IMG/VR virus record: IMGVR_UViG_3300025597_000036
DNA from: a virus
Direction: 5' to 3' (one strand)
DNA: 31,588 nucleotides
Under the pieces are notes generated by a model. It was not told the DNA's origin, searched no databases, and worked only from the letters and a program-made list of their open reading frames with translations. Below, piece by piece: positions 1,864 through 6,848 of the stretch. A program made the position numbers and the translations under genes. Numbering within the stretch: position 1 is the stretch's first letter; each line of letters starts with the position of its first letter.

Positions 1864-2073
1864 TCATTTGAAATTCGGATCGGCTCTCAAAATACCATCG
1901 GCGCCCTGAACAGCGACCAGTCGCTTGCCTTCCTTAGCCTTTTCTTCAGCAACCCACTGGCGAATGACACTAACCTTGGACCGCATTTCAGCTTTTGCCT
2001 TGGCAATGATGTATCTTTCAGTTTCAGGATCGACTCTGATGACACCACATAATTTTTGGTTTATTTCGCTCAT
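1864..2073 (-). CDS. Cro-like small DNA-binding protein (possible ribbon-helix-helix)
   Basis: 69-aa ORF, first gene downstream of a consensus promoter and divergent from the repressor gene. The beta-helix-helix-like pattern is GVIRVDPETERYIIAKAKAEMRSKVSVIRQWV. Confidence 0.55.
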   Translation of the reverse strand: MSEINQKLCGVIRVDPETERYIIAKAKAEMRSKVSVIRQWVAEEKAKEGKRLVAVQGADGILRADPNFK

Positions 2074-2153: not shown

Positions 2154-2609
2154 ATGATTAAAAAAATTGAGTATATTAACTTTGTGACTTCAAAGGGAAG
2201 ACTTGCAGATTATTTCGAACGTAATTATCTTGAATACCAGAAAAAACATGGCTTAATGTCTCTGGCATCTTTTTCAAGATTATTAAAATTTTCTAGATCA
2301 TATCTCAGTCAAATTTTGGAAGGTACGCGCACATCGATGAGCTACCATACCGCAAGGTACGTGGCTGATATACTCCAAGACTACGAAATTCTCGAGATTT
2401 TGAACTACGATTTGCCAGCCCCAGAAGAAAGGGCCCCATTTTTCGGGTTTCCACCTGAAATCATCGAAGCATTGAAATCCGCTCGTGATAAAATCTCCAC
2501 CTTAGGAATTGCAGACAATTCACCGGAAGGCAAAGCGATATACAACTCAGCAATAGAAAAAGTGCTGAAAAATCTGACAACTAATACTGAAGAATCGGGC
2601 AGGTCATAA
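2154..2609 (+). CDS. XRE-family HTH repressor (cI-like, no S24 peptidase domain)
   Basis: HTH segment SLASFSRLLKFSRSYLSQILEGTRT. The gene is divergent from the cro-like gene and has no SD before the ATG. The coding sequence is visibly AT-rich. Confidence 0.75.
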   Translation: MIKKIEYINFVTSKGRLADYFERNYLEYQKKHGLMSLASFSRLLKFSRSYLSQILEGTRTSMSYHTARYVADILQDYEILEILNYDLPAPEERAPFFGFPPEIIEALKSARDKISTLGIADNSPEGKAIYNSAIEKVLKNLTTNTEESGRS

Positions 2610-2813
2610 CGTAAAAAATTCATAGTGGTACCCCTTTGTTGCACATAATTACATTATAGATATTTTGTTCTAATAAATCAAGCGGTAAGGGAGGTGAATA
2701 TTCATCAGGTAAGTCCAATCAAAATCCCCATCATCATCTTCACCCGTTTGAAATAATTTTATAAAAAAAAAAAAAATAACAACAAATCATTTCAAACATC
2801 CTCAGGAGGGAAA

Positions 2814-3137
2814 ATGGAAGAAACCTTTGTATGTGCAGTTTGTGGCCAGAAAGAACCCAAAGTAAGACTCACCAGGCTTGGAGACAAACTCTACTGCTCT
2901 GACCACCTTGAACAGGGTCAGCAGGATCTCGCCATCGCAGAACTGGCAAAGAAATTTCCAGACCAGAACACTCTAAATCTCTATCTTTTTGATCATGTTG
3001 AACGACTTCTCACCAACAGTAGAGATCAAACTAAATACCTGAAATCGATCAAATCGATTCTCACCTTCTTCGTCGTGATCACCATTCTTGGTATCATCGT
3101 TTCTCTTCTTGAGTCATGCGCAGGATCCTTATATTAA
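2814..3137 (+). CDS. Zn-ribbon-like, C-terminally membrane-anchored protein
   Basis: Strong SD (AGGAGGGAAAATG). N-terminal CAVCGQ...YCSDH motif. C-terminal hydrophobic helix ILTFFVVITILGIIVSLL. Confidence 0.65.
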   Translation: MEETFVCAVCGQKEPKVRLTRLGDKLYCSDHLEQGQQDLAIAELAKKFPDQNTLNLYLFDHVERLLTNSRDQTKYLKSIKSILTFFVVITILGIIVSLLESCAGSLY

Positions 3138-4132
3138 AAATCAAATCAACCTTTGAGCGCATGCTCTCTGCGCTCCACCTCACCGCATTCCACCCCGCGC
3201 TGGTCGCCCTGATCCTCGCCACACTCCTCATGGTCCCGGTTTGCATGATCATCGCAGTCGTCAGCGGAGCGCGGGTTCTTACCTCGAGCACTGGTGTACC
3301 AGCTCCGGTGCTCGAATCAACGGCCGTGTCCATCTCTGTTTCTACCGAAACACCCTTGCCAACACTCACACCATCATCCATTCCGACCAAAATCTACACC
3401 AACACACCCACGCTCACTTTCACTCCAACAAAAACATTTACTCCCACACTAACCTTCACCCCATCCGCGACACCTACTATCACCCTGCCGGCTGCTCAGG
3501 GTGCCAACTGTGTACCAGATGAAAACGAGCGCGTTGTAGCCCGCGTGGTAAGCGTTACTGACGGTGATACCATCGTCGTGGATATCGGCGGTACCCAGTA
3601 CAAACTGCGTTACATAGGCATCGATGCCCCCGAATCAAGCGCTACAGGTGGAAAACAATCCACCGATTACAACCGCCAGCTCGTGGAAGGAAAAACAGTC
3701 ACCCTGGTCAAAGATCACTCCGAAACTGACCGTTACGACCGATTGCTGAGGTACGTTTTCGTAGGTGACACCTTTGTGAATTACGAAATGGTGCGTGCCG
3801 GCTTTGCCACATCAGGATCATGGCCACCAGACACCGCCTGTGACCAGGTGTTTGCAACTGCAGAACAATCAGCCCGACTGAATCAGCTTGGCTTATGGGT
3901 ACCAACGATCACCCCTGTGCTTTACATTCCCCCAGCTGCCATATCTACCAGCTCAGGCATTATCTCAGGAAGCGGATCGAATTGCGATCCATCCTACCCT
4001 GATGTATGCATTCCACGATACCCGCCTGATCTCGATTGCAGTCAGATCCCATACCGCCGTTTCCGCGTCATTCCGCCAGATCCCCATTCATTTGACCGTG
4101 ATGGTGACGGCATCGGTTGTGAAGGTGGATAA
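3116..4132 (+). CDS. Membrane-anchored extracellular thermonuclease (SNase) with C-terminal Excalibur Ca-binding domain
   Basis: N-terminal TM helix ALVALILATLLMVPVCMIIAVV, then a Thr/Pro linker. SNase signature: VTDGDTIVVD...LRYIGIDAPE...DRYDRLLRYVF...NYEMVRAGFA. Excalibur signature: NCDPSYPDVC...FDRDGDGIGCE. The start is uncertain (ATG 3116 or 3161). Confidence 0.88.
   Translation: MRRILILKIKSTFERMLSALHLTAFHPALVALILATLLMVPVCMIIAVVSGARVLTSSTGVPAPVLESTAVSISVSTETPLPTLTPSSIPTKIYTNTPTLTFTPTKTFTPTLTFTPSATPTITLPAAQGANCVPDENERVVARVVSVTDGDTIVVDIGGTQYKLRYIGIDAPESSATGGKQSTDYNRQLVEGKTVTLVKDHSETDRYDRLLRYVFVGDTFVNYEMVRAGFATSGSWPPDTACDQVFATAEQSARLNQLGLWVPTITPVLYIPPAAISTSSGIISGSGSNCDPSYPDVCIPRYPPDLDCSQIPYRRFRVIPPDPHSFDRDGDGIGCEGG
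3404..3475 (+). repeat. In-frame 18-nt tandem repeats encoding TPTLTF/TPTKTF/TPTLTF/TPSATP
   Basis: Read directly from the codons at 3404-3475 of the nuclease linker. Confidence 0.8.
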
Positions 4133-4133
4133 A

Positions 4134-5786
4134 ATGAATAACTCACAAATCACCTTTCCCCCTGGCTCTTCCGTTGTCGCCTACCTTCGCGATTCAGGCG
4201 GTGATGAGCAAGATCTTTCCGTTGCACAGCAACAAAATGTCGTAGAAAAATGGTGCACCGAACACAATATCACACTGTCACGGGTATTTTCAGACGTTGC
4301 TACTCCAGGCTCTTCCACGATTGGACGTTCTGCATTCAAACAAATGATCTCTCACTTTCATAATGTAAATTGTGCTGACAAGGGCGTGATCATCTGGAAG
4401 TTCTCCCGCTTCTCACGCGATATCGACGATGCCCAGTTCTATCGCGCAGATCTGCGCCGGCGCGGTTATATCGTATATTCCATTCAGGATAACATTCCAG
4501 ATACCACAGACGGCCGAATCTACGAGGCCCTCCTGGATTGGATGAACAACAAGTTCCTCGAGGATCTGTCGGTCGACGTGAAGCGTGGCCTGCACCACAT
4601 CGTCCGTGAATATGGAGCTGTACCAGGTACCCCGCCGAGAGGTTTCAAACGTGAAATTACGACAATCGGCATTCGGCGCGATGGATCACCTCATAAAGTC
4701 TCCCGCTGGGTCCCTGATCCTGAATGGTGGAATATTTGCCGGCGTGCCTGGGAGCTACGCTCAACCGGCGTTCCTATCAGACAAATCCACAAGGAACTAC
4801 ACATATTCGGCTCAATGCAGTCCTACACCACATTTTTCACCAACCGTATTTATCTTGGAGAGCTGCATTACGGAGAAATCACCATTCCAGATTATACCGA
4901 TCCAATGATTACAAAAGAGGAGTGGGATGCTGTTCAATTCCTCAACAGGAAAAATTCAGTGGAGTATGATCCCATGAAACGAAATCAAAACCCTCACCAC
5001 CCCAGGAGGATTTCAAGTTCCTTCCTGCTCAGCGGGTTGATTTACTGTGTCCGCTGTGGTAGTCTGCTGAATGGAGAAGTGCTGCGATTCAAAAACGGAC
5101 AATATCTAATGTACTATCACTGTGGAAATGCGCACCGAAACCTGGACTGCAACGCCAGGCGCATTCCAAAAGCCGCGATCGAAAAAGTTGTTATTGACCG
5201 TCTGAGAGAATACATCCTTGATCCAGCTTTGATTGCCGAGCGCGATCGAGAATATGCCATAGCGCATTCTGGAGAACGCGACAAAATCCACGAGGAACAA
5301 AAAAAAGTAAAATACGAGATCTCAGAATTACAGCGCAAAATGGATAACATCTCCCGCCAGATCGCTGATGACCCTTCCCCTTCGCGTACCTTAATGACCC
5401 TAATAAAAGAACTTGAGCAACAAGAACAAAAGAAAATCGATGAACTCGAACGACTGAGATCAATCGAAAACAGAGAAACTGTGTTTATTGGATCGCCAGC
5501 AAATTATGCCAGATTGTCAGAAAAATTTACAACAGAACTTGTCTCAGGCGATCCTGAGCGTATTAAATTAATCCTGCGAGGATTGATCGATCGAATATCA
5601 GCTGAACGTGATGGTGACTACATCAGAGGAATGATTTACTTCTTCAACCCTGAATTAGGCGAAGATAACTCCACGTCCTCAGATGAATTATATATGTCTA
5701 TGAATCAGAGCCACCGAAGGGGCTCTTCATATACACATATTAATGTTTACAATGTCGATTTTTGCACCACCCTCCCCCACAAATAA
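4134..5786 (+). CDS. int: Large serine recombinase (integrase)
   Basis: SD AAGGTGG precedes ATG 4134. Resolvase-type N-domain VVAYLRDSGGDEQDLSVAQQ...FSRFSRD. Recombinase domain plus Zn-ribbon (CVRCGS...YYHCGNAHRNLDC). C-terminal coiled coil. Confidence 0.9.
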   Translation: MNNSQITFPPGSSVVAYLRDSGGDEQDLSVAQQQNVVEKWCTEHNITLSRVFSDVATPGSSTIGRSAFKQMISHFHNVNCADKGVIIWKFSRFSRDIDDAQFYRADLRRRGYIVYSIQDNIPDTTDGRIYEALLDWMNNKFLEDLSVDVKRGLHHIVREYGAVPGTPPRGFKREITTIGIRRDGSPHKVSRWVPDPEWWNICRRAWELRSTGVPIRQIHKELHIFGSMQSYTTFFTNRIYLGELHYGEITIPDYTDPMITKEEWDAVQFLNRKNSVEYDPMKRNQNPHHPRRISSSFLLSGLIYCVRCGSLLNGEVLRFKNGQYLMYYHCGNAHRNLDCNARRIPKAAIEKVVIDRLREYILDPALIAERDREYAIAHSGERDKIHEEQKKVKYEISELQRKMDNISRQIADDPSPSRTLMTLIKELEQQEQKKIDELERLRSIENRETVFIGSPANYARLSEKFTTELVSGDPERIKLILRGLIDRISAERDGDYIRGMIYFFNPELGEDNSTSSDELYMSMNQSHRRGSSYTHINVYNVDFCTTLPHK

Positions 5787-5808: not shown

Positions 5809-6087
5809 TTACTTACCCCTCCATGCCGTTACCTTGTTACCGCTATGCGTTCTCCTTTCAACGCGTTCCAGGGTCCCTGCTTGCTCCATCTCAATTAATT
5901 TCTTTCGCGCCGTTTGTGGAGAAACCCCCAGCCTTTTTGCCAGAGCAACAGCTGTCAATTCCTTTCTCTCATCCAGGTACGGTGGAAGGTCATCCACCAT
6001 CAGACTCAATAATTCTTCTAATCCAAAATTCAAATCCGGACAATCGCCGGCTTTGGCATTTGATACAACATTCTCTCTGTTCGCCAT
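5809..6087 (-). CDS. Small winged-helix DNA-binding protein (regulator or RDF candidate)
   Basis: Strong SD (GGAGGATAAAACATG) at ATG 6087. HTH segment LTAVALAKRLGVSPQTARKKLIEMEQAG. The gene overlaps the upstream gene by 58 nt. Confidence 0.6.
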   Translation of the reverse strand: MANRENVVSNAKAGDCPDLNFGLEELLSLMVDDLPPYLDERKELTAVALAKRLGVSPQTARKKLIEMEQAGTLERVERRTHSGNKVTAWRGK

Positions 6088-6848
6088 GTTTTATCCTCCA
6101 CAATAAAAATCACTCCCCCGATGTGTGGCAAGCGCATCCGATCAATCCTCTCAACGTGTGGTGTTCGCAGCTGCCAGCCAGGAGTGACCGTCAACTGAAT
6201 ATCTCGATTCCCTTCTCTTGGAAGTGGAACCGTAATATACCTGTGCCGGTGTGAACGCACAAACACATCCGGCAGCCTTTGCTCCCACTGCACGGATTCC
6301 ACCAGCCCCGCGACCATCTCCCTCATTGGCGCGCTCGTCTCGTAAGCTGCACTAGAAGTCGTACCAATATGATGAGCAAATTGAAACACGACTCCATTCA
6401 CATCAAGCCACAGCTGCCACACTGAATTAGCACCACTTTCGTCTAGCTCACAGCCAATCTGCCTTGCAATTGACTCAGTATTCTGGTCGCTCTTTCCTCC
6501 ATGAGCTTCAGTCCCTCTCACCATAAATGTACGATATTTTCTCGTAATGTCACGCAACATTTCAACTGCTGTTCGCTCTTGCGTTTCAAGATTAGCAACC
6601 AGGTCAACCGCCTGGTGATGATTTCCATCGATCGCGTCCCCGTTGATCACCACCGTCACATCTTTGCACCCCTTTGTTGTTCTAACCACAAAGGTTTTCC
6701 AAAAATGATCCCAGCAATCCACCAGGTACTGCTGGTACTTCGATGGCAGCTGCACCGCCCCATTATCCAGCTTAATCCCCTCACGCGGACACAAACCGGC
6801 GAATGAGCCAATATGCAAGTCAGAAACACAAACCACAGCCCTTTTCAA
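6030..6848 (-). CDS. Calcineurin-like metallophosphoesterase
   Basis: TTG start with SD AGGAGGG. Motifs VCVSDLHIG, VINGDAIDGNHH, GTEAHGG, FAHH, RSHRHR. Confidence 0.78.
   Translation of the reverse strand: MKRAVVCVSDLHIGSFAGLCPREGIKLDNGAVQLPSKYQQYLVDCWDHFWKTFVVRTTKGCKDVTVVINGDAIDGNHHQAVDLVANLETQERTAVEMLRDITRKYRTFMVRGTEAHGGKSDQNTESIARQIGCELDESGANSVWQLWLDVNGVVFQFAHHIGTTSSAAYETSAPMREMVAGLVESVQWEQRLPDVFVRSHRHRYITVPLPREGNRDIQLTVTPGWQLRTPHVERIDRMRLPHIGGVIFIVEDKTWRTERMLYQMPKPAIVRI

What the first reader, a model, noticed from the sequence alone, without database searches (positions are those of the whole stretch)
2814..4132. Tail-anchored Zn-ribbon protein plus membrane-anchored SNase-Excalibur nuclease in the repressor-integrase slot
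Two overlapping plus-strand genes lie between the repressor and the integrase. In well-studied temperate phages of Gram-positive hosts, this is the locus where membrane-associated superinfection-exclusion genes sit (lactococcal Sie proteins, Ltp of TP-J34). Here the cargo is a Ca-dependent thermonuclease fold. It is held outside the membrane by an N-terminal TM helix and a TP-repeat stalk, ends in an Excalibur Ca-binding domain, and is preceded by a CxxC...CxxH protein with a C-terminal anchor.

My inference is that this could be an exclusion or defence module that degrades DNA at the cell surface, either incoming phage DNA or transforming DNA. Alternatively it could be a lysogenic-conversion DNase like those of streptococcal prophages. 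The pairing with the Zn-ribbon protein is not something I recognise.
Basis: partly seen in the sequence, partly recalled or inferred. Interest (0 to 1): 0.72.

Follow-up and report, generated by a model that had tools for sequence, protein, structure and literature searches.

The report
Prophage surface nuclease plus zinc-finger protein
A temperate phage of Anaerolineae-type (Chloroflexota) bacteria carries, between its repressor-like gene and its integrase, a membrane-tethered DNA-cutting enzyme of the kind known from Bacillus prophage SPbeta (YokF), preceded by a very rare small membrane protein with a zinc finger whose function is unknown and which is not an obligatory partner of the enzyme.

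Summary
Both genes are real, overlap by 22 nt and are under purifying selection (dN/dS 0.11-0.17).

ORF B (3116-4132) has an N-in signal-anchor helix, a Thr/Pro stalk, a staphylococcal-nuclease domain with its catalytic residues intact, and a four-cysteine Excalibur-like end. This is the three-part plan of SPbeta YokF. Related nucleases are common in Chloroflexota genomes (at least 589 loci). They also recur just upstream of the integrase in two related prophage lineages.

ORF A (2814-3137) has a cytoplasmic CxxC...CxxH/C zinc finger, closer to LIM/ClpX treble clefs than to a classic zinc ribbon, followed by long helices and a C-terminal membrane helix. Its family is tiny: 14 clusters among 5.8 billion.

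The pairing is conserved with start/stop overlap in three variants of this phage and recurs in a distant prophage. It is not general. None of 80 genomic nuclease loci has an ORF A relative. Sister prophages put other genes upstream of the nuclease. ORF A relatives also occur without a nuclease, once next to an IetAS defence pair.

Most likely this is lysogeny-slot cargo: a YokF/Nuc2-like surface DNase plus a separately mobile membrane protein. A cooperative two-gene exclusion module remains possible (about 0.2).

The parts
2154..2609 (+). Repressor-like first gene of the lysogeny operon (151 aa, weak HTH)
   Evidence: HTH_19/HTH_31 matches are below threshold. It is divergent from a cro-like gene that has a perfect TTGACA-16-TATAAT promoter on the minus strand at 2141->2114. 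It is 74% identical in L104 and 26% identical to the first lysogeny gene of the tyrosine-integrase prophage L011.
2610..2813 (+). AT-rich 204-nt spacer with an A14 run (2763-2776), a weak promoter-like site (2748-2777) and the ORF A Shine-Dalgarno AGGAGG (2804-2809)
   Evidence: Whether ORF A has its own promoter was not established.
2814..3137 (+). ORF A: 107-aa tail-anchored zinc-finger protein, founding member of a very rare family
   Evidence: Homologs: 8 representatives among 1.84 billion and 14 clusters among 5.8 billion. dN/dS is 0.11-0.13. No Pfam, PHROG, NCBIfam or PADLOC family matches.
2826..2909 (+). ORF A zinc finger (residues 5-32; C7, C10, C28, H31)
   Evidence: The three Cys are invariant and position 31 is H or C in 12 relatives. 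AF2 gives a hairpin followed by a helix start, pLDDT 74-88. Best Foldseek hits are LIM half-domains and the ClpX zinc-binding domain, none significant (E >= 0.08). Sub-threshold LIM hits occur in 4 of 12 members.
3054..3116 (+). ORF A C-terminal transmembrane helix (residues 81-101) with a conserved juxtamembrane motif Q72..LKSI..TFF..G93
   Evidence: Kyte-Doolittle 19-residue maximum is 2.76 at 81-99, with +4/-1 charge just before it. The AF2 helix runs 51-104. This is the most conserved part of the family, and it also occurs without the finger (P0123, P0128, P0136, L012).
3116..4132 (+). ORF B: 338-aa membrane-tethered thermonuclease (YokF/Nuc2-like)
   Evidence: SNase PF00565 at 1.3e-16. 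phrog_20876 'nuclease' at 2.4e-21. 2115 homologs, the nearest named Anaerolinea, Anaerolineaceae and Bellilinea. AF2 mean pLDDT 83.
3116..3137 (+). 22-nt overlap of the ORF A stop with the ORF B start (probable translational coupling)
   Evidence: No Shine-Dalgarno precedes 3116. The overlap is conserved at 19 nt in L001 and 4 nt in L104. The alternative start at 3161 is not conserved.
3194..3271 (+). ORF B signal-anchor transmembrane helix (residues 27-52), preceded by a conserved cytoplasmic amphipathic helix (residues 2-19)
   Evidence: Kyte-Doolittle maximum is 2.89 at 31-49, and the N-tail is +5/-1. AF2 helices 2-19 and 27-57 have pLDDT 82-94. The motif L-H/G-L-T/A-x-F-H-P-A is shared with relatives. 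Cleavage by signal peptidase is not excluded.
3281..3493 (+). Thr/Pro-rich stalk (residues 56-126; 22 T, 12 P; three TFTP(T/S) units)
   Evidence: AF2 models it as disordered, pLDDT 41-58. TRF finds no DNA-level tandem repeat.
3503..3910 (+). Staphylococcal-nuclease (OB-fold) catalytic domain, residues about 130-265
   Evidence: phmmer to PDB thermonuclease gives 2.7e-10. Foldseek gives TM-score 0.90 and rmsd 1.6 A to 3t13. D151, R165, D170, E173, Y207 and R209 align with SNase D21, R35, D40, E43, Y85 and R87; T41 is Ala. C132 and C242 are invariant.
3983..4129 (+). C-terminal four-cysteine Excalibur-like domain (residues 290-338; ends DRDGDGIGCE)
   Evidence: PF05901 scores 19.6 bits against a cut-off of 22. 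43 of 55 relatives hit PF05901, best 4.3e-8. C290, C298, C308 and C335 are invariant or nearly so. AF2 pLDDT is 91-94.
4134..5786 (+). Large serine recombinase (integrase), starting 1 nt after the ORF B stop
   Evidence: Resolvase, Recombinase and Zn_ribbon_recom domains. phrog_95 'integrase' at 4.8e-62.
1864..2073 (-). Cro-like small gene divergent from the repressor-like gene
   Evidence: It is conserved next to the 151-aa gene in L006 and L007.

Best explanation
The region is the cargo part of the lysogeny operon (repressor-like gene, ORF A, ORF B, serine integrase) of a temperate siphovirus-type phage that infects Anaerolineae-like Chloroflexota.

ORF B is a YokF/Nuc2-type surface nuclease. 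A positively charged N-tail and one long hydrophobic helix insert it N-in/C-out. A disordered Thr/Pro stalk carries a Ca2+-dependent staphylococcal-nuclease domain outside the membrane. A disulfide-bonded Excalibur-like Ca-binding domain follows; in YokF that domain restrains the nuclease until it is removed. The gene was drawn from the large pool of such nucleases in Chloroflexota, and it is a recurrent cargo immediately upstream of the integrase in two related prophage lineages. In a lysogen it most likely degrades DNA at the cell surface. That DNA would be foreign or exchanged DNA (plasmids, transforming DNA) and matrix eDNA, rather than injected phage DNA.

ORF A is a separate, rare, mobile gene. 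It encodes a cytoplasmic treble-clef-like zinc finger on a long helix that ends in a tail anchor. In this phage lineage it is translationally coupled to the nuclease, but the nuclease does not need it. My best guess is that it is a prophage-expressed membrane protein of the exclusion or abortive-infection type, acting through its conserved juxtamembrane/TM segment.

Shown: gene reality, domain anatomy, intact catalytic residues, context statistics. Inferred: topology, expression in the lysogen, substrates, any defence role, and the ORF A function.
For: Anatomy of both proteins:
- Domain hits, sequence features and alignments.
- Structure models and fold matches.
- Purifying selection on both genes.

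YokF precedent:
- YokF scores SNase 9.5e-33 and Excalibur 9.4e-14, and is annotated as a putative lipoprotein on SPbeta.
- ORF B is 31% identical to it across the SNase domain.
- The YokF preprint reports membrane localisation, nuclease-dependent blocking of plasmid exchange, and autoinhibition by the C-terminal domain, which is released.
- Nuc2 is a signal-anchored type II surface SNase (PMC3994088).

Host pool:
- 2115 homologs.
- At least 589 loci in species genomes, mostly Chloroflexota.

Recurrent slot cargo (nuclease just upstream of the integrase):
- Serine-integrase prophages: window, L001, L104/105, L009/010, L044, L049.
- Tyrosine-integrase prophages: L011, L106/107, L024, L025.
-.

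ORF A is not required by the nuclease:
- 0 of 80 genomic nuclease loci carry an ORF A relative.
- L009, L106, L024/25, L044/49 and L111 have other genes or nothing upstream.

ORF A is mobile on its own:
- Next to IetA/IetS.
- Next to a serine recombinase without a nuclease.
- After a P-type ATPase.

Operon layout:
- 22-nt overlap between ORF A and ORF B.
- 1-nt gap between ORF B and the integrase.
- No predicted terminator from the repressor-like gene's stop at 2609 to the integrase start at 4134.
Against: - The pairing is tighter than independent cargo requires. Start/stop overlap is kept in three variants that are saturated at synonymous sites.
- A 30%-identical ORF A relative sits 10 nt upstream of the nuclease in the distant prophage L011, and a third relative lies 1.3 kb upstream in L017.
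- No expression data exist. The operon could be transcribed at establishment or induction rather than in the lysogen.
- YokF is reported to act mainly inside the donor cell at nanotubes, through FlhA. That mechanism may not transfer to Chloroflexota.
- Cellular homologs suggest an ordinary nutritional or eDNA role that has nothing to do with defence.
- The ORF A function is a guess. No homolog has a known function.
Confidence: 0.55

Rival explanations
1. ORF A and ORF B form an obligate two-component membrane module for exclusion or defence. In this reading the tail-anchored zinc-finger protein positions, gates or activates the outward-facing nuclease. It could do so through TM-TM contact, or by binding the nuclease's conserved cytoplasmic N-terminal helix. 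DNA entering the cell (phage, plasmid or transforming DNA) would then be cut at the entry site.
For: - Conserved start/stop overlap of 22, 19 and 4 nt in three diverged variants.
- Adjacency again in L011, where ORF A is only 30% identical, and proximity in L017.
- Repressor, ORF A and nuclease diverge as one block between the window and L104: 74% for the repressor-like protein, 74% for ORF A, and dN 0.19 versus 0.24 for ORF A and ORF B.
- The most conserved part of ORF A is its TM and juxtamembrane segment, which suggests a specific partner within the membrane.
- An ORF A relative lies beside an IetAS defence pair.
- The SNase part of ORF B matches a PADLOC candidate-defence model, SNc+LTD, at 7e-23.
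- Two-gene Sie systems exist (SieF7/2AB, PMC7693887).
Against: - 0 of 80 genomic nuclease loci have an ORF A relative within 8 kb.
- Closely related prophages keep the nuclease but swap the upstream gene for a 196-aa lipoprotein (L009) or a 256-aa protein (L106).
- ORF A relatives occur without a nuclease.
- The cytoplasmic N-terminal motif of the nuclease is equally conserved in homologs that lack ORF A.
- L003 keeps ORF A while its nuclease carries a 154-nt frameshifting deletion.
- Phage DNA is normally injected through a sealed channel, out of reach of an external nuclease (general knowledge).
Confidence: 0.2
2. The nuclease is a plain lysogenic-conversion or auxiliary gene that benefits the host's nutrition or biofilm life. 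It would scavenge nucleotides and phosphate from eDNA, or remodel the eDNA matrix of granules and filaments, as the cellular copies presumably do. It would have no role in defence. ORF A would be unrelated.
For: - The same architecture is widespread as a chromosomal gene across Chloroflexota, CPR bacteria and Actinomycetota. Of 80 fetched loci, 73 have no detectable integrase, repressor or ParB nearby.
- S. aureus Nuc and Nuc2 modulate biofilm (PMC3994088).
- YokF homologs outside B. subtilis are mostly chromosomal.
Against: - A prophage gains little by duplicating a function the host usually already has. Repeated capture into the repressor-integrase slot, where exclusion genes cluster, suggests a conflict-related role (PMC7693887).
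- The only prophage-borne member tested so far, YokF, restricts plasmid transfer.
Confidence: 0.15
3. ORF A belongs to the lysis-lysogeny control circuit rather than to the cargo. It would be a membrane-tethered zinc finger that sequesters or protects a regulator, in the way lambda CIII interferes with FtsH or a ClpX-ZBD-like decoy might. The nuclease would simply be inserted downstream of it.
For: - ORF A diverges in step with the repressor-like protein: 74%/74% against L104 and 30%/26% against L011. The nuclease is more conserved.
- The finger resembles protein-binding fingers (LIM, ClpX ZBD) more than DNA-binding ones, although not significantly.
- ORF A sits directly after the repressor-like gene in the window.
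Against: - Sister prophages with homologous repressors lack ORF A (L009, L024/25, L106).
- ORF A relatives occur outside lysogeny modules: next to IetAS, and after a P-type ATPase.
- Finger-less versions and a copy in a tail-gene cluster exist.
Confidence: 0.07

Closest known systems
YokF of Bacillus subtilis prophage SPbeta (SNase + Excalibur lipoprotein; 'TNase + TNM' in bioRxiv 10.1101/2025.10.26.684598)
   Same: - It is prophage-encoded.
- It has the same three-part plan: membrane-targeting N-terminus, unstructured linker(s), SNase domain, and a small C-terminal Excalibur-type domain (Pfam on YokF; ORF B).
- The SNase domains are 31% identical.
- The reported function is restriction of DNA traffic at the membrane.
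   Different: - YokF is a lipoprotein with a short signal peptide. ORF B has no lipobox and has a 26-residue signal-anchor helix behind a conserved cytoplasmic helix.
- ORF B has a long Thr/Pro stalk before the nuclease domain.
- Its C-terminal domain has four conserved cysteines and matches Excalibur only below threshold.
- The host phylum differs (Chloroflexota versus Bacillota).
- yokF is not in the repressor-integrase slot and has no ORF A-like neighbour; its flanking genes are yokG and yokE.
- The nanotube/FlhA mechanism and the autoinhibition are untested here.
Staphylococcus aureus Nuc2 (PMC3994088)
   Same: [quoted passage not shown] It is Ca2+-dependent and surface-attached.
   Different: - Nuc2 is chromosomal.
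- It has no Excalibur domain and no Thr/Pro stalk.
- It has no upstream zinc-finger partner.
Superinfection-exclusion genes of the repressor-integrase slot (lactococcal Sie2009 family, S. thermophilus Ltp; PMC7693887, PMC3952083)
   Same: - They occupy the same genomic slot and are expressed from the prophage.
- They are small membrane-associated or surface proteins.
- A two-gene variant exists (SieF7/2AB).
   Different: - There is no sequence or profile similarity.
- Sie2009 is anchored by its N-terminus and Ltp is a lipoprotein. ORF A is tail-anchored, with its bulk in the cytoplasm and a zinc finger.
- None of these systems includes a nuclease.
Treble-clef zinc fingers (LIM half-domain, ClpX zinc-binding domain)
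   Same: ORF A has a CxxC knuckle, a beta-hairpin and a C-x2-H/C pair at the start of a helix. These fingers are the top structural neighbours of its model. Weak LIM profile hits occur in 4 of 12 family members.
   Different: - No match is significant (best E 0.08; Pfam E 0.0019, below threshold).
- ORF A has a single finger fused to a tail anchor, an architecture I did not find described.

Membership tests
Staphylococcal nuclease / thermonuclease (Pfam PF00565) | Profile match above the curated threshold | tested here: met
   61.4 bits against a cut-off of 21, residues 163-261. All 55 aligned relatives match.
Staphylococcal nuclease / thermonuclease (Pfam PF00565) | OB-fold SNase structure | tested here: met
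   The AF2 domain has pLDDT 96-98. Foldseek to 3t13 gives E 3.5e-12, TM-score 0.90 and rmsd 1.6 A.
Staphylococcal nuclease / thermonuclease (Pfam PF00565) | Ca2+ ligands and catalytic residues (D21, D40, T41, R35, E43, R87, Y85 in SNase numbering) | tested here: met
   D151, D170, R165, E173, R209 and Y207 are present and are invariant or nearly so in relatives. T41 is Ala; SNase uses the main-chain carbonyl of this residue (my own knowledge).
Staphylococcal nuclease / thermonuclease (Pfam PF00565) | Ca2+-dependent DNase/RNase activity | not testable with these tools
   This needs an enzyme assay.
YokF-type prophage nucleases (SP + TNase + TNM/Excalibur) | Three-domain plan: membrane-targeting N-terminus, SNase, C-terminal Excalibur-type domain | tested here: met
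   ORF B: TM 27-52, SNase 130-265, Cys-rich Excalibur-like 290-338. YokF: SNase 91-199, Excalibur 260-295.
YokF-type prophage nucleases (SP + TNase + TNM/Excalibur) | C-terminal domain is an Excalibur domain (PF05901) by the curated threshold | tested here: inconclusive
   19.6 bits against 22, and only the DxDxDGxxCE end aligns. 43 of 55 relatives hit at E <= 0.01, best 4.3e-8. BLASTP against the YokF C-terminus finds nothing.
YokF-type prophage nucleases (SP + TNase + TNM/Excalibur) | Lipoprotein signal peptide | tested here: not met
   There is no lipobox. A 26-residue hydrophobic helix follows a 26-residue charged N-tail, and the only Cys in this region (C43) lies in the middle of the helix. 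YokF is annotated as a putative lipoprotein.
YokF-type prophage nucleases (SP + TNase + TNM/Excalibur) | Autoinhibition by the C-terminal domain, its release, and blocking of plasmid exchange | not testable with these tools
   These features were defined experimentally.
Signal-anchored surface SNase (Nuc2 type) | Uncleaved N-terminal anchor with the enzyme domain outside | tested here: inconclusive
   - Hydropathy, the positive-inside rule, the AF2 helix and six conserved exported cysteines all support N-in/C-out.
- An S-G-A site after the helix could be cleaved. It is not conserved in relatives.
- No SignalP or DeepTMHMM was available.
Sie2009 / Ltp superinfection-exclusion proteins | Gene lies in the lysogeny module between repressor and integrase | tested here: met
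   The slot is described in PMC7693887.
Sie2009 / Ltp superinfection-exclusion proteins | Sequence or profile similarity; N-terminal hydrophobic anchor (Sie2009) or lipoprotein (Ltp) | tested here: not met
   ORF A has no PHROG or Pfam hit and no tblastn hit in 50,697 phage records. It is anchored by its C-terminus.
Sie2009 / Ltp superinfection-exclusion proteins | Blocks DNA injection by a superinfecting phage | not testable with these tools
   This needs plating and adsorption/injection assays.
Zinc ribbon / treble-clef zinc finger (ORF A N-terminus) | Four conserved metal ligands with CxxC ... CxxH/C spacing | tested here: met
   C7, C10 and C28 are invariant, and position 31 is H or C in 12 sequences that are 23-93% identical.
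Zinc ribbon / treble-clef zinc finger (ORF A N-terminus) | Significant structural or profile match to a named finger family | tested here: inconclusive
   - Foldseek best E is 0.08 (LIM, ClpX ZBD) in the PDB and 0.066 in BFVD.
- Pfam LIM best E is 0.0019, below threshold.
- The last two ligands sit at a strand end and a helix start, which is treble-clef-like rather than a two-knuckle ribbon.
Known anti-phage defence systems (PADLOC-DB 2.0) | Match to a defence-system protein model | tested here: inconclusive
   - ORF A: no match.
- ORF B: a match at 7e-23 to the candidate model PDLC01096 'SNc+LTD', confined to the SNase part.
- No LTD was found in ORF B; Pfam lists only SNase and Excalibur.

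The most novel reading that the evidence does not exclude
ORF A and the nuclease are a previously undescribed two-part membrane device of Chloroflexota prophages. In this reading, a cytoplasmic zinc-finger sensor or adaptor on a tail anchor pairs, within the membrane, with an outward-facing YokF-like nuclease. It would recruit or unleash the nuclease where foreign DNA crosses the envelope. The association would be ancient, kept across prophages whose repressors are only 26% identical, and repeatedly lost elsewhere.
Probability: 0.15. Interest if true: 0.65.

Novelty: new variant of a known kind. Interest (0 to 1): 0.36.

Why it matters
- **Reach of YokF-type nucleases.** If the nuclease acts as YokF does, prophage-borne membrane SNase-Excalibur nucleases that police DNA traffic extend from Bacillota to Chloroflexota. 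That phylum dominates anaerobic digesters and sediments, and almost nothing is known about its phage-host conflict.
- **Recurrent capture.** The nuclease has been captured repeatedly just upstream of two different integrase types. This argues that it pays its way for the prophage.
- **ORF A as an orphan family.** It has about 14 clusters in 5.8 billion proteins and a clean, testable architecture: a zinc finger, a long helix and a tail anchor with a conserved TM motif. Its neighbours (a nuclease, an IetAS pair, recombinases) point to mobile-element conflict.
- **Limits.** The hosts are uncultured, the family is tiny, and the pairing is not general. The practical impact is therefore modest unless a physical or functional link between the two proteins is shown.

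Tried and rejected
- **Apparent loss of the nuclease in L005.** This was a gene-calling artefact. The DNA is identical to the window.
- **Downstream start at 3161 for ORF B (no overlap).** Rejected. That codon is CTG in L001, and the upstream N-terminus is conserved.
- **Database searches for ORF A.** Pfam, PHROGs, NCBIfam and PADLOC gave no family. tblastn against 50,697 phage records gave no match. Foldseek against PDB and BFVD gave nothing significant.
- **Collection scans with the ORF A family.**
  - Metagenome scan with a narrower alignment: found only L001 again, plus a 33-residue match in L110 with no ORF of at least 50 aa around it, which I treated as spurious.
  - Viral scan: one finger-less relative.
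- **DNA-level tandem repeat in the stalk.** None found. The repeat exists only at the protein level.
- **Comparison with streptococcal prophage DNases.** Rejected as the closest analogue, because they are a different fold family (my own knowledge). YokF and Nuc2 are closer.
- **Chance ORFs.** Rejected by dN/dS and by the homologs.
- **tRNA genes.** None in the window, so no tRNA gene is available there to mark an attachment site.
- **Literature.** A search for tail-anchored zinc-finger exclusion proteins found none.
- **Not possible here.** Multimer prediction, SignalP/DeepTMHMM, and inspecting model coordinates for docking of the C-terminal domain onto the active site.


Full report
**What is in the sequence**

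The window is a temperate, siphovirus-like phage genome. On the minus strand it carries:
- a replication initiator;
- small and large terminase, portal and major head protein;
- tape measure and tail proteins;
- a GH25-like endolysin.

A plus-strand island at 2154-5786 holds four genes:
- a 151-aa repressor-like gene (2154-2609; its HTH matches are below threshold);
- ORF A (2814-3137);
- ORF B (3116-4132);
- a large serine recombinase (4134-5786; Resolvase + Recombinase + Zn_ribbon_recom; phrog_95 at 4.8e-62).

The repressor-like gene faces a 69-aa cro-like gene across a perfect TTGACA-16-TATAAT promoter on the minus strand. ORF A has a strong AGGAGG Shine-Dalgarno. ORF B has none and starts 22 nt before the ORF A stop. 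The integrase starts 1 nt after the ORF B stop.

The same DNA is present in at least four other metagenome assemblies. In one of them (L005) the gene caller missed the nuclease, although the sequence is identical.

**Are the genes real, and is the overlap real?**

Both genes are real.
- Against the 93%-identical relative L001, ORF A has dN/dS 0.11-0.13 and ORF B 0.17.
- Against L104, synonymous sites are saturated (pS 0.67-0.90) while pN is 0.16-0.21.

The overlap is also real. The alternative in-frame ATG at 3161 is CTG in L001. The upstream start and the N-terminal peptide it encodes are conserved. The overlap is 19 nt in L001 and a 4-nt ATGA in L104.

**ORF B**

From N- to C-terminus:
- A basic N-tail (+5/-1) that AF2 models as an amphipathic helix (residues 2-19). 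It carries a motif (LHLTAFHPA) shared with many relatives.
- One long hydrophobic helix (about 27-52; Kyte-Doolittle 2.89; AF2 helix 27-57).
- A disordered stalk (56-126), 61% Thr/Pro/Ser, with three TFTP(T/S) units. It is not a DNA-level tandem repeat.
- An SNase domain (about 130-265).
- A short linker.
- A 49-residue end with four conserved cysteines that finishes in DRDGDGIGCE.

The SNase assignment is solid:
- Pfam gives 61.4 bits against a cut-off of 21.
- phmmer to PDB thermonucleases gives 2.7e-10.
- Foldseek gives TM-score 0.90 at 1.6 A.
- D151, R165, D170, E173, Y207 and R209 align with SNase D21, R35, D40, E43, Y85 and R87. Only T41 is changed, to Ala.

The C-terminal domain reaches only 19.6 bits on Excalibur (cut-off 22) in this copy. 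However, 43 of 55 relatives hit PF05901, down to 4.3e-8. I therefore call it Excalibur-like.

Six conserved cysteines beyond the membrane helix, together with the positive-inside rule, argue that everything after residue 52 is extracytoplasmic. Cleavage after S-G-A (residue 52) cannot be excluded, but that site is not conserved.

**Where ORF B comes from**

- It has 2115 scored homologs. The nearest named ones are from Anaerolinea, Anaerolineaceae and Bellilinea.
- A scan of one genome per species found at least 589 loci. Most are in Chloroflexota, with some in CPR bacteria and Actinomycetota.
- Of the 80 loci fetched, 73 have no integrase, repressor or ParB relative within 8 kb.

The architecture is therefore a common cellular one in this phylum.

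**The nuclease is a recurrent prophage cargo**

It also sits immediately upstream of the integrase in two prophage lineages whose first lysogeny genes are homologous (26% identity):
- Serine-integrase lineage: window, L001, L104/L105, L003, L009/L010, L044, L049.
- Tyrosine-integrase lineage: L011, L106/L107, L024, L025.

**ORF A**

- It has one hydrophobic helix at 81-99 (Kyte-Doolittle 2.76). The helix is preceded by +4/-1 charge and followed by 5-8 residues, so the protein is tail-anchored with its bulk in the cytoplasm.
- C7, C10 and C28 are invariant. Position 31 is His or Cys in 12 relatives that are 23-93% identical, the classic signature of a metal site.
- AF2 (pLDDT 80) gives a knuckle and hairpin (5-28), a helix (29-47) and a long helix (51-104) that runs into the membrane.
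- The last two ligands sit at a strand end and a helix start, which is treble-clef geometry. The nearest structures are LIM half-domains and the ClpX zinc-binding domain, but none is significant: best E is 0.08 in the PDB and 0.066 in BFVD. LIM profile hits in 4 of 12 members are below threshold.
- No Pfam, PHROG, NCBIfam or PADLOC family matches, and no deposited phage genome encodes a relative.
- The family is extremely rare: 8 representatives among 1.84 billion proteins and 14 clusters among 5.8 billion.
- Its most conserved part is the juxtamembrane/TM segment (Q72, LKSI, TFF, G93). That segment also occurs without the finger (P0123, P0128, P0136). In L012 it follows a tape-measure gene in a low-GC phage.

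**Is the pair co-conserved?**

Starting from ORF A, I found seven contexts:
1. Window/L001: overlap with the nuclease.
2. L104/L105/L003: 4-nt overlap with the nuclease.
3. L011: the nuclease starts 10 nt downstream.
4. L017-L019: the nuclease is 1.3 kb downstream, with three genes between.
5. L013-L016: no nuclease within 8 kb. ORF A lies 471 nt upstream of an IetA/IetS defence pair (IetA 7.6e-94, IetS 3.9e-64).
6. L020-L022: ORF A follows a P-type ATPase. No nuclease.
7. L023: ORF A lies between a YbjQ gene and a serine recombinase. No nuclease.

Contexts 1 and 2 are one phage lineage. Contexts 3 and 4 share near-identical nucleases.

Starting from the nuclease:
- None of 80 genomic loci has an ORF A relative within 8 kb (best HMM E-value 0.52).
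- L111 has none.
- Sister prophages keep the nuclease but have other genes upstream: a 196-aa lipoprotein (L009; similar in L024/L025), a 256-aa protein (L106), or a 278-284-aa protein (L044/L049).
- In L003 the nuclease carries a 154-nt frameshifting deletion in its anchor/stalk region while ORF A is intact. This could instead be an assembly collapse in the repeat.

So the pairing is conserved within this phage lineage, and it recurs in a distant relative. Divergence there is compatible with ancient linkage:

| Comparison | Repressor-like | ORF A | Nuclease |
|---|---|---|---|
| Window vs L104 | 74% | 74% (close variant P0002) | not computed as % identity; dN 0.24 vs 0.19 for ORF A |
| Window vs L011 | 26% | 30% | about 60% |

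The nuclease does not need ORF A, and ORF A travels without the nuclease.

**How it most likely works**

The closest characterised protein is YokF of prophage SPbeta.
- I confirmed that YokF is SNase (9.5e-33) plus Excalibur (9.4e-14) behind a lipoprotein signal.
- ORF B is 31% identical to it across the nuclease domain.
- A 2025 preprint reports that YokF is a membrane-localised nuclease and that its catalytic activity and signal peptide are needed to block nanotube-mediated plasmid exchange.
- The same preprint reports that the C-terminal domain (residues 256-296, which is the Excalibur domain) binds and restrains the nuclease and is released into the medium, and that homologs from other Gram-positives do the same.
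- S. aureus Nuc2 shows that a signal-anchored SNase is an active, Ca2+-dependent surface enzyme (PMC3994088).

By analogy, ORF B is inserted N-in/C-out and held away from the membrane by its stalk, and it cuts DNA outside the cell. Its Excalibur-like end is possibly a Ca-binding lid.

Because it sits in an operon with the repressor-like gene and the integrase, I infer that it is made in lysogens. Its useful targets are more likely plasmid, transforming or matrix DNA than injected phage DNA, which does not normally pass through the medium.

For ORF A I can only offer a reasoned guess: a prophage membrane protein of the exclusion or abortive-infection kind, or an adaptor. This rests on four points:
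- its slot, where such genes cluster (PMC7693887, PMC3952083);
- its conserved TM segment;
- a protein-binding type of finger;
- its neighbours elsewhere.

**Rivals**

- An obligate two-gene module is kept alive by the conserved translational coupling and the recurrence in L011. I give it about 0.2.
- A purely nutritional or biofilm role for the nuclease (about 0.15) fits the many cellular copies.
- A regulatory role for ORF A in the lysogeny switch (about 0.07) fits its co-divergence with the repressor. It does not fit its absence from sister prophages or its presence outside lysogeny modules.

**Novelty and verdict**

The nuclease is a new variant of a known kind, a YokF/Nuc2-like surface nuclease. 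It differs in four ways:
- it is in a new phylum;
- it has a signal anchor and a Thr/Pro stalk;
- it has a cysteine-rich Excalibur-like end;
- it sits in a recurrent position next to the integrase.

ORF A is a genuinely unannotated, very rare family, but nothing yet shows that it does something new together with the nuclease. Interest is moderate to low (0.36). It would rise substantially if a physical or functional ORF A-nuclease link were demonstrated.

Noticed in passing
L013 8001-12422 (also L014-L016; ENA contigs up to 545 kb): An ORF A-family gene (P0132, 102 aa) lies 471 nt upstream of an IetA/IetS defence pair (AAA ATPase + S8 protease; PADLOC 7.6e-94 and 3.9e-64). A 115-aa membrane protein lies directly upstream of it.
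   Followed up: partly
L012 5839-6162 (IMGVR_UViG_3300001525_000109): A 107-aa protein shares only ORF A's juxtamembrane + TM module (…HLKTIKGILIFFMVLTIIGII…) and has no zinc finger. It is encoded right after a 1684-aa tape-measure gene in a low-GC phage, so the module is used in a tail-gene context too.
   Followed up: no
L003 about 3140 (versus L104 5927-6080): A 154-nt frameshifting deletion removes part of the anchor and stalk of the nuclease gene in one MAG contig, while the ORF A homolog stays intact. It is either a real pseudogene or an assembly collapse in the Thr/Pro-coding repeat.
   Followed up: partly
L104 5020-5229 / L003 2236-2445: The L104-type phage carries a second, finger-less ORF A paralog (P0136, 69 aa). 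It is closest to the C-terminal half of the L011-type protein and lies two genes upstream of the full-length ORF A homolog.
   Followed up: partly
L108 2177-2659 (SPbeta yokE) and L106 8664-9041: A bacterial PH-domain protein sits next to yokF in SPbeta. A bPH protein also sits two genes upstream of the nuclease in the Anaerolineae prophage L106/L107. This may be coincidence.
   Followed up: no
L003 4331-4612, L009 3377-3697, L011 8994-9281, L106 11597-11893, L023 886-1155: A small protein (89-106 aa) lies between the nuclease or ORF A and the integrase in these related prophages, immediately upstream of it in L003, L009 and L023. Pfam assigns DUF3892 to the L011 and L106 copies; the others have no hit and are grouped by eye. 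The window phage lacks it.
   Followed up: no
BK065154.1 4589-5164 (Archaeoglobus profundus pleomorphic provirus 1): An archaeal provirus encodes a protein 36.6% identical to ORF B over residues 149-336, which covers the SNase domain and the C-terminal Excalibur-like domain.
   Followed up: no
window 2610-2813: A 204-nt AT-rich spacer with an A14 run (2763-2776) separates the repressor-like gene from ORF A. Related phages (L104, L009) have two or three extra genes here (HTH_3, small proteins), so the spacer may be a deletion scar or may hold a promoter.
   Followed up: no
window 5809-6848 (minus strand): Between the integrase and the endolysin lie a 92-aa DeoR-type winged-helix protein (5809-6087; possible excision or regulatory factor) and a 272-aa protein with a weak exonuclease PHROG hit and, by eye, a metallophosphoesterase-like N-terminal motif (6030-6848).
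   Followed up: no
L005 1383-2399: The public gene calls for this contig omit the nuclease gene, although the DNA is identical to the window. They call a minus-strand ORF and an N-terminally extended integrase instead. Precomputed annotations under-report this gene.
   Followed up: yes
L024 10231-10755: A 174-aa protein in a tyrosine-integrase prophage has several CxxC pairs, including a 'CSKCKG…GKEYCYEC' stretch that resembles the ORF A finger. It has no tail anchor and no significant HMM score (E 0.52).
   Followed up: no
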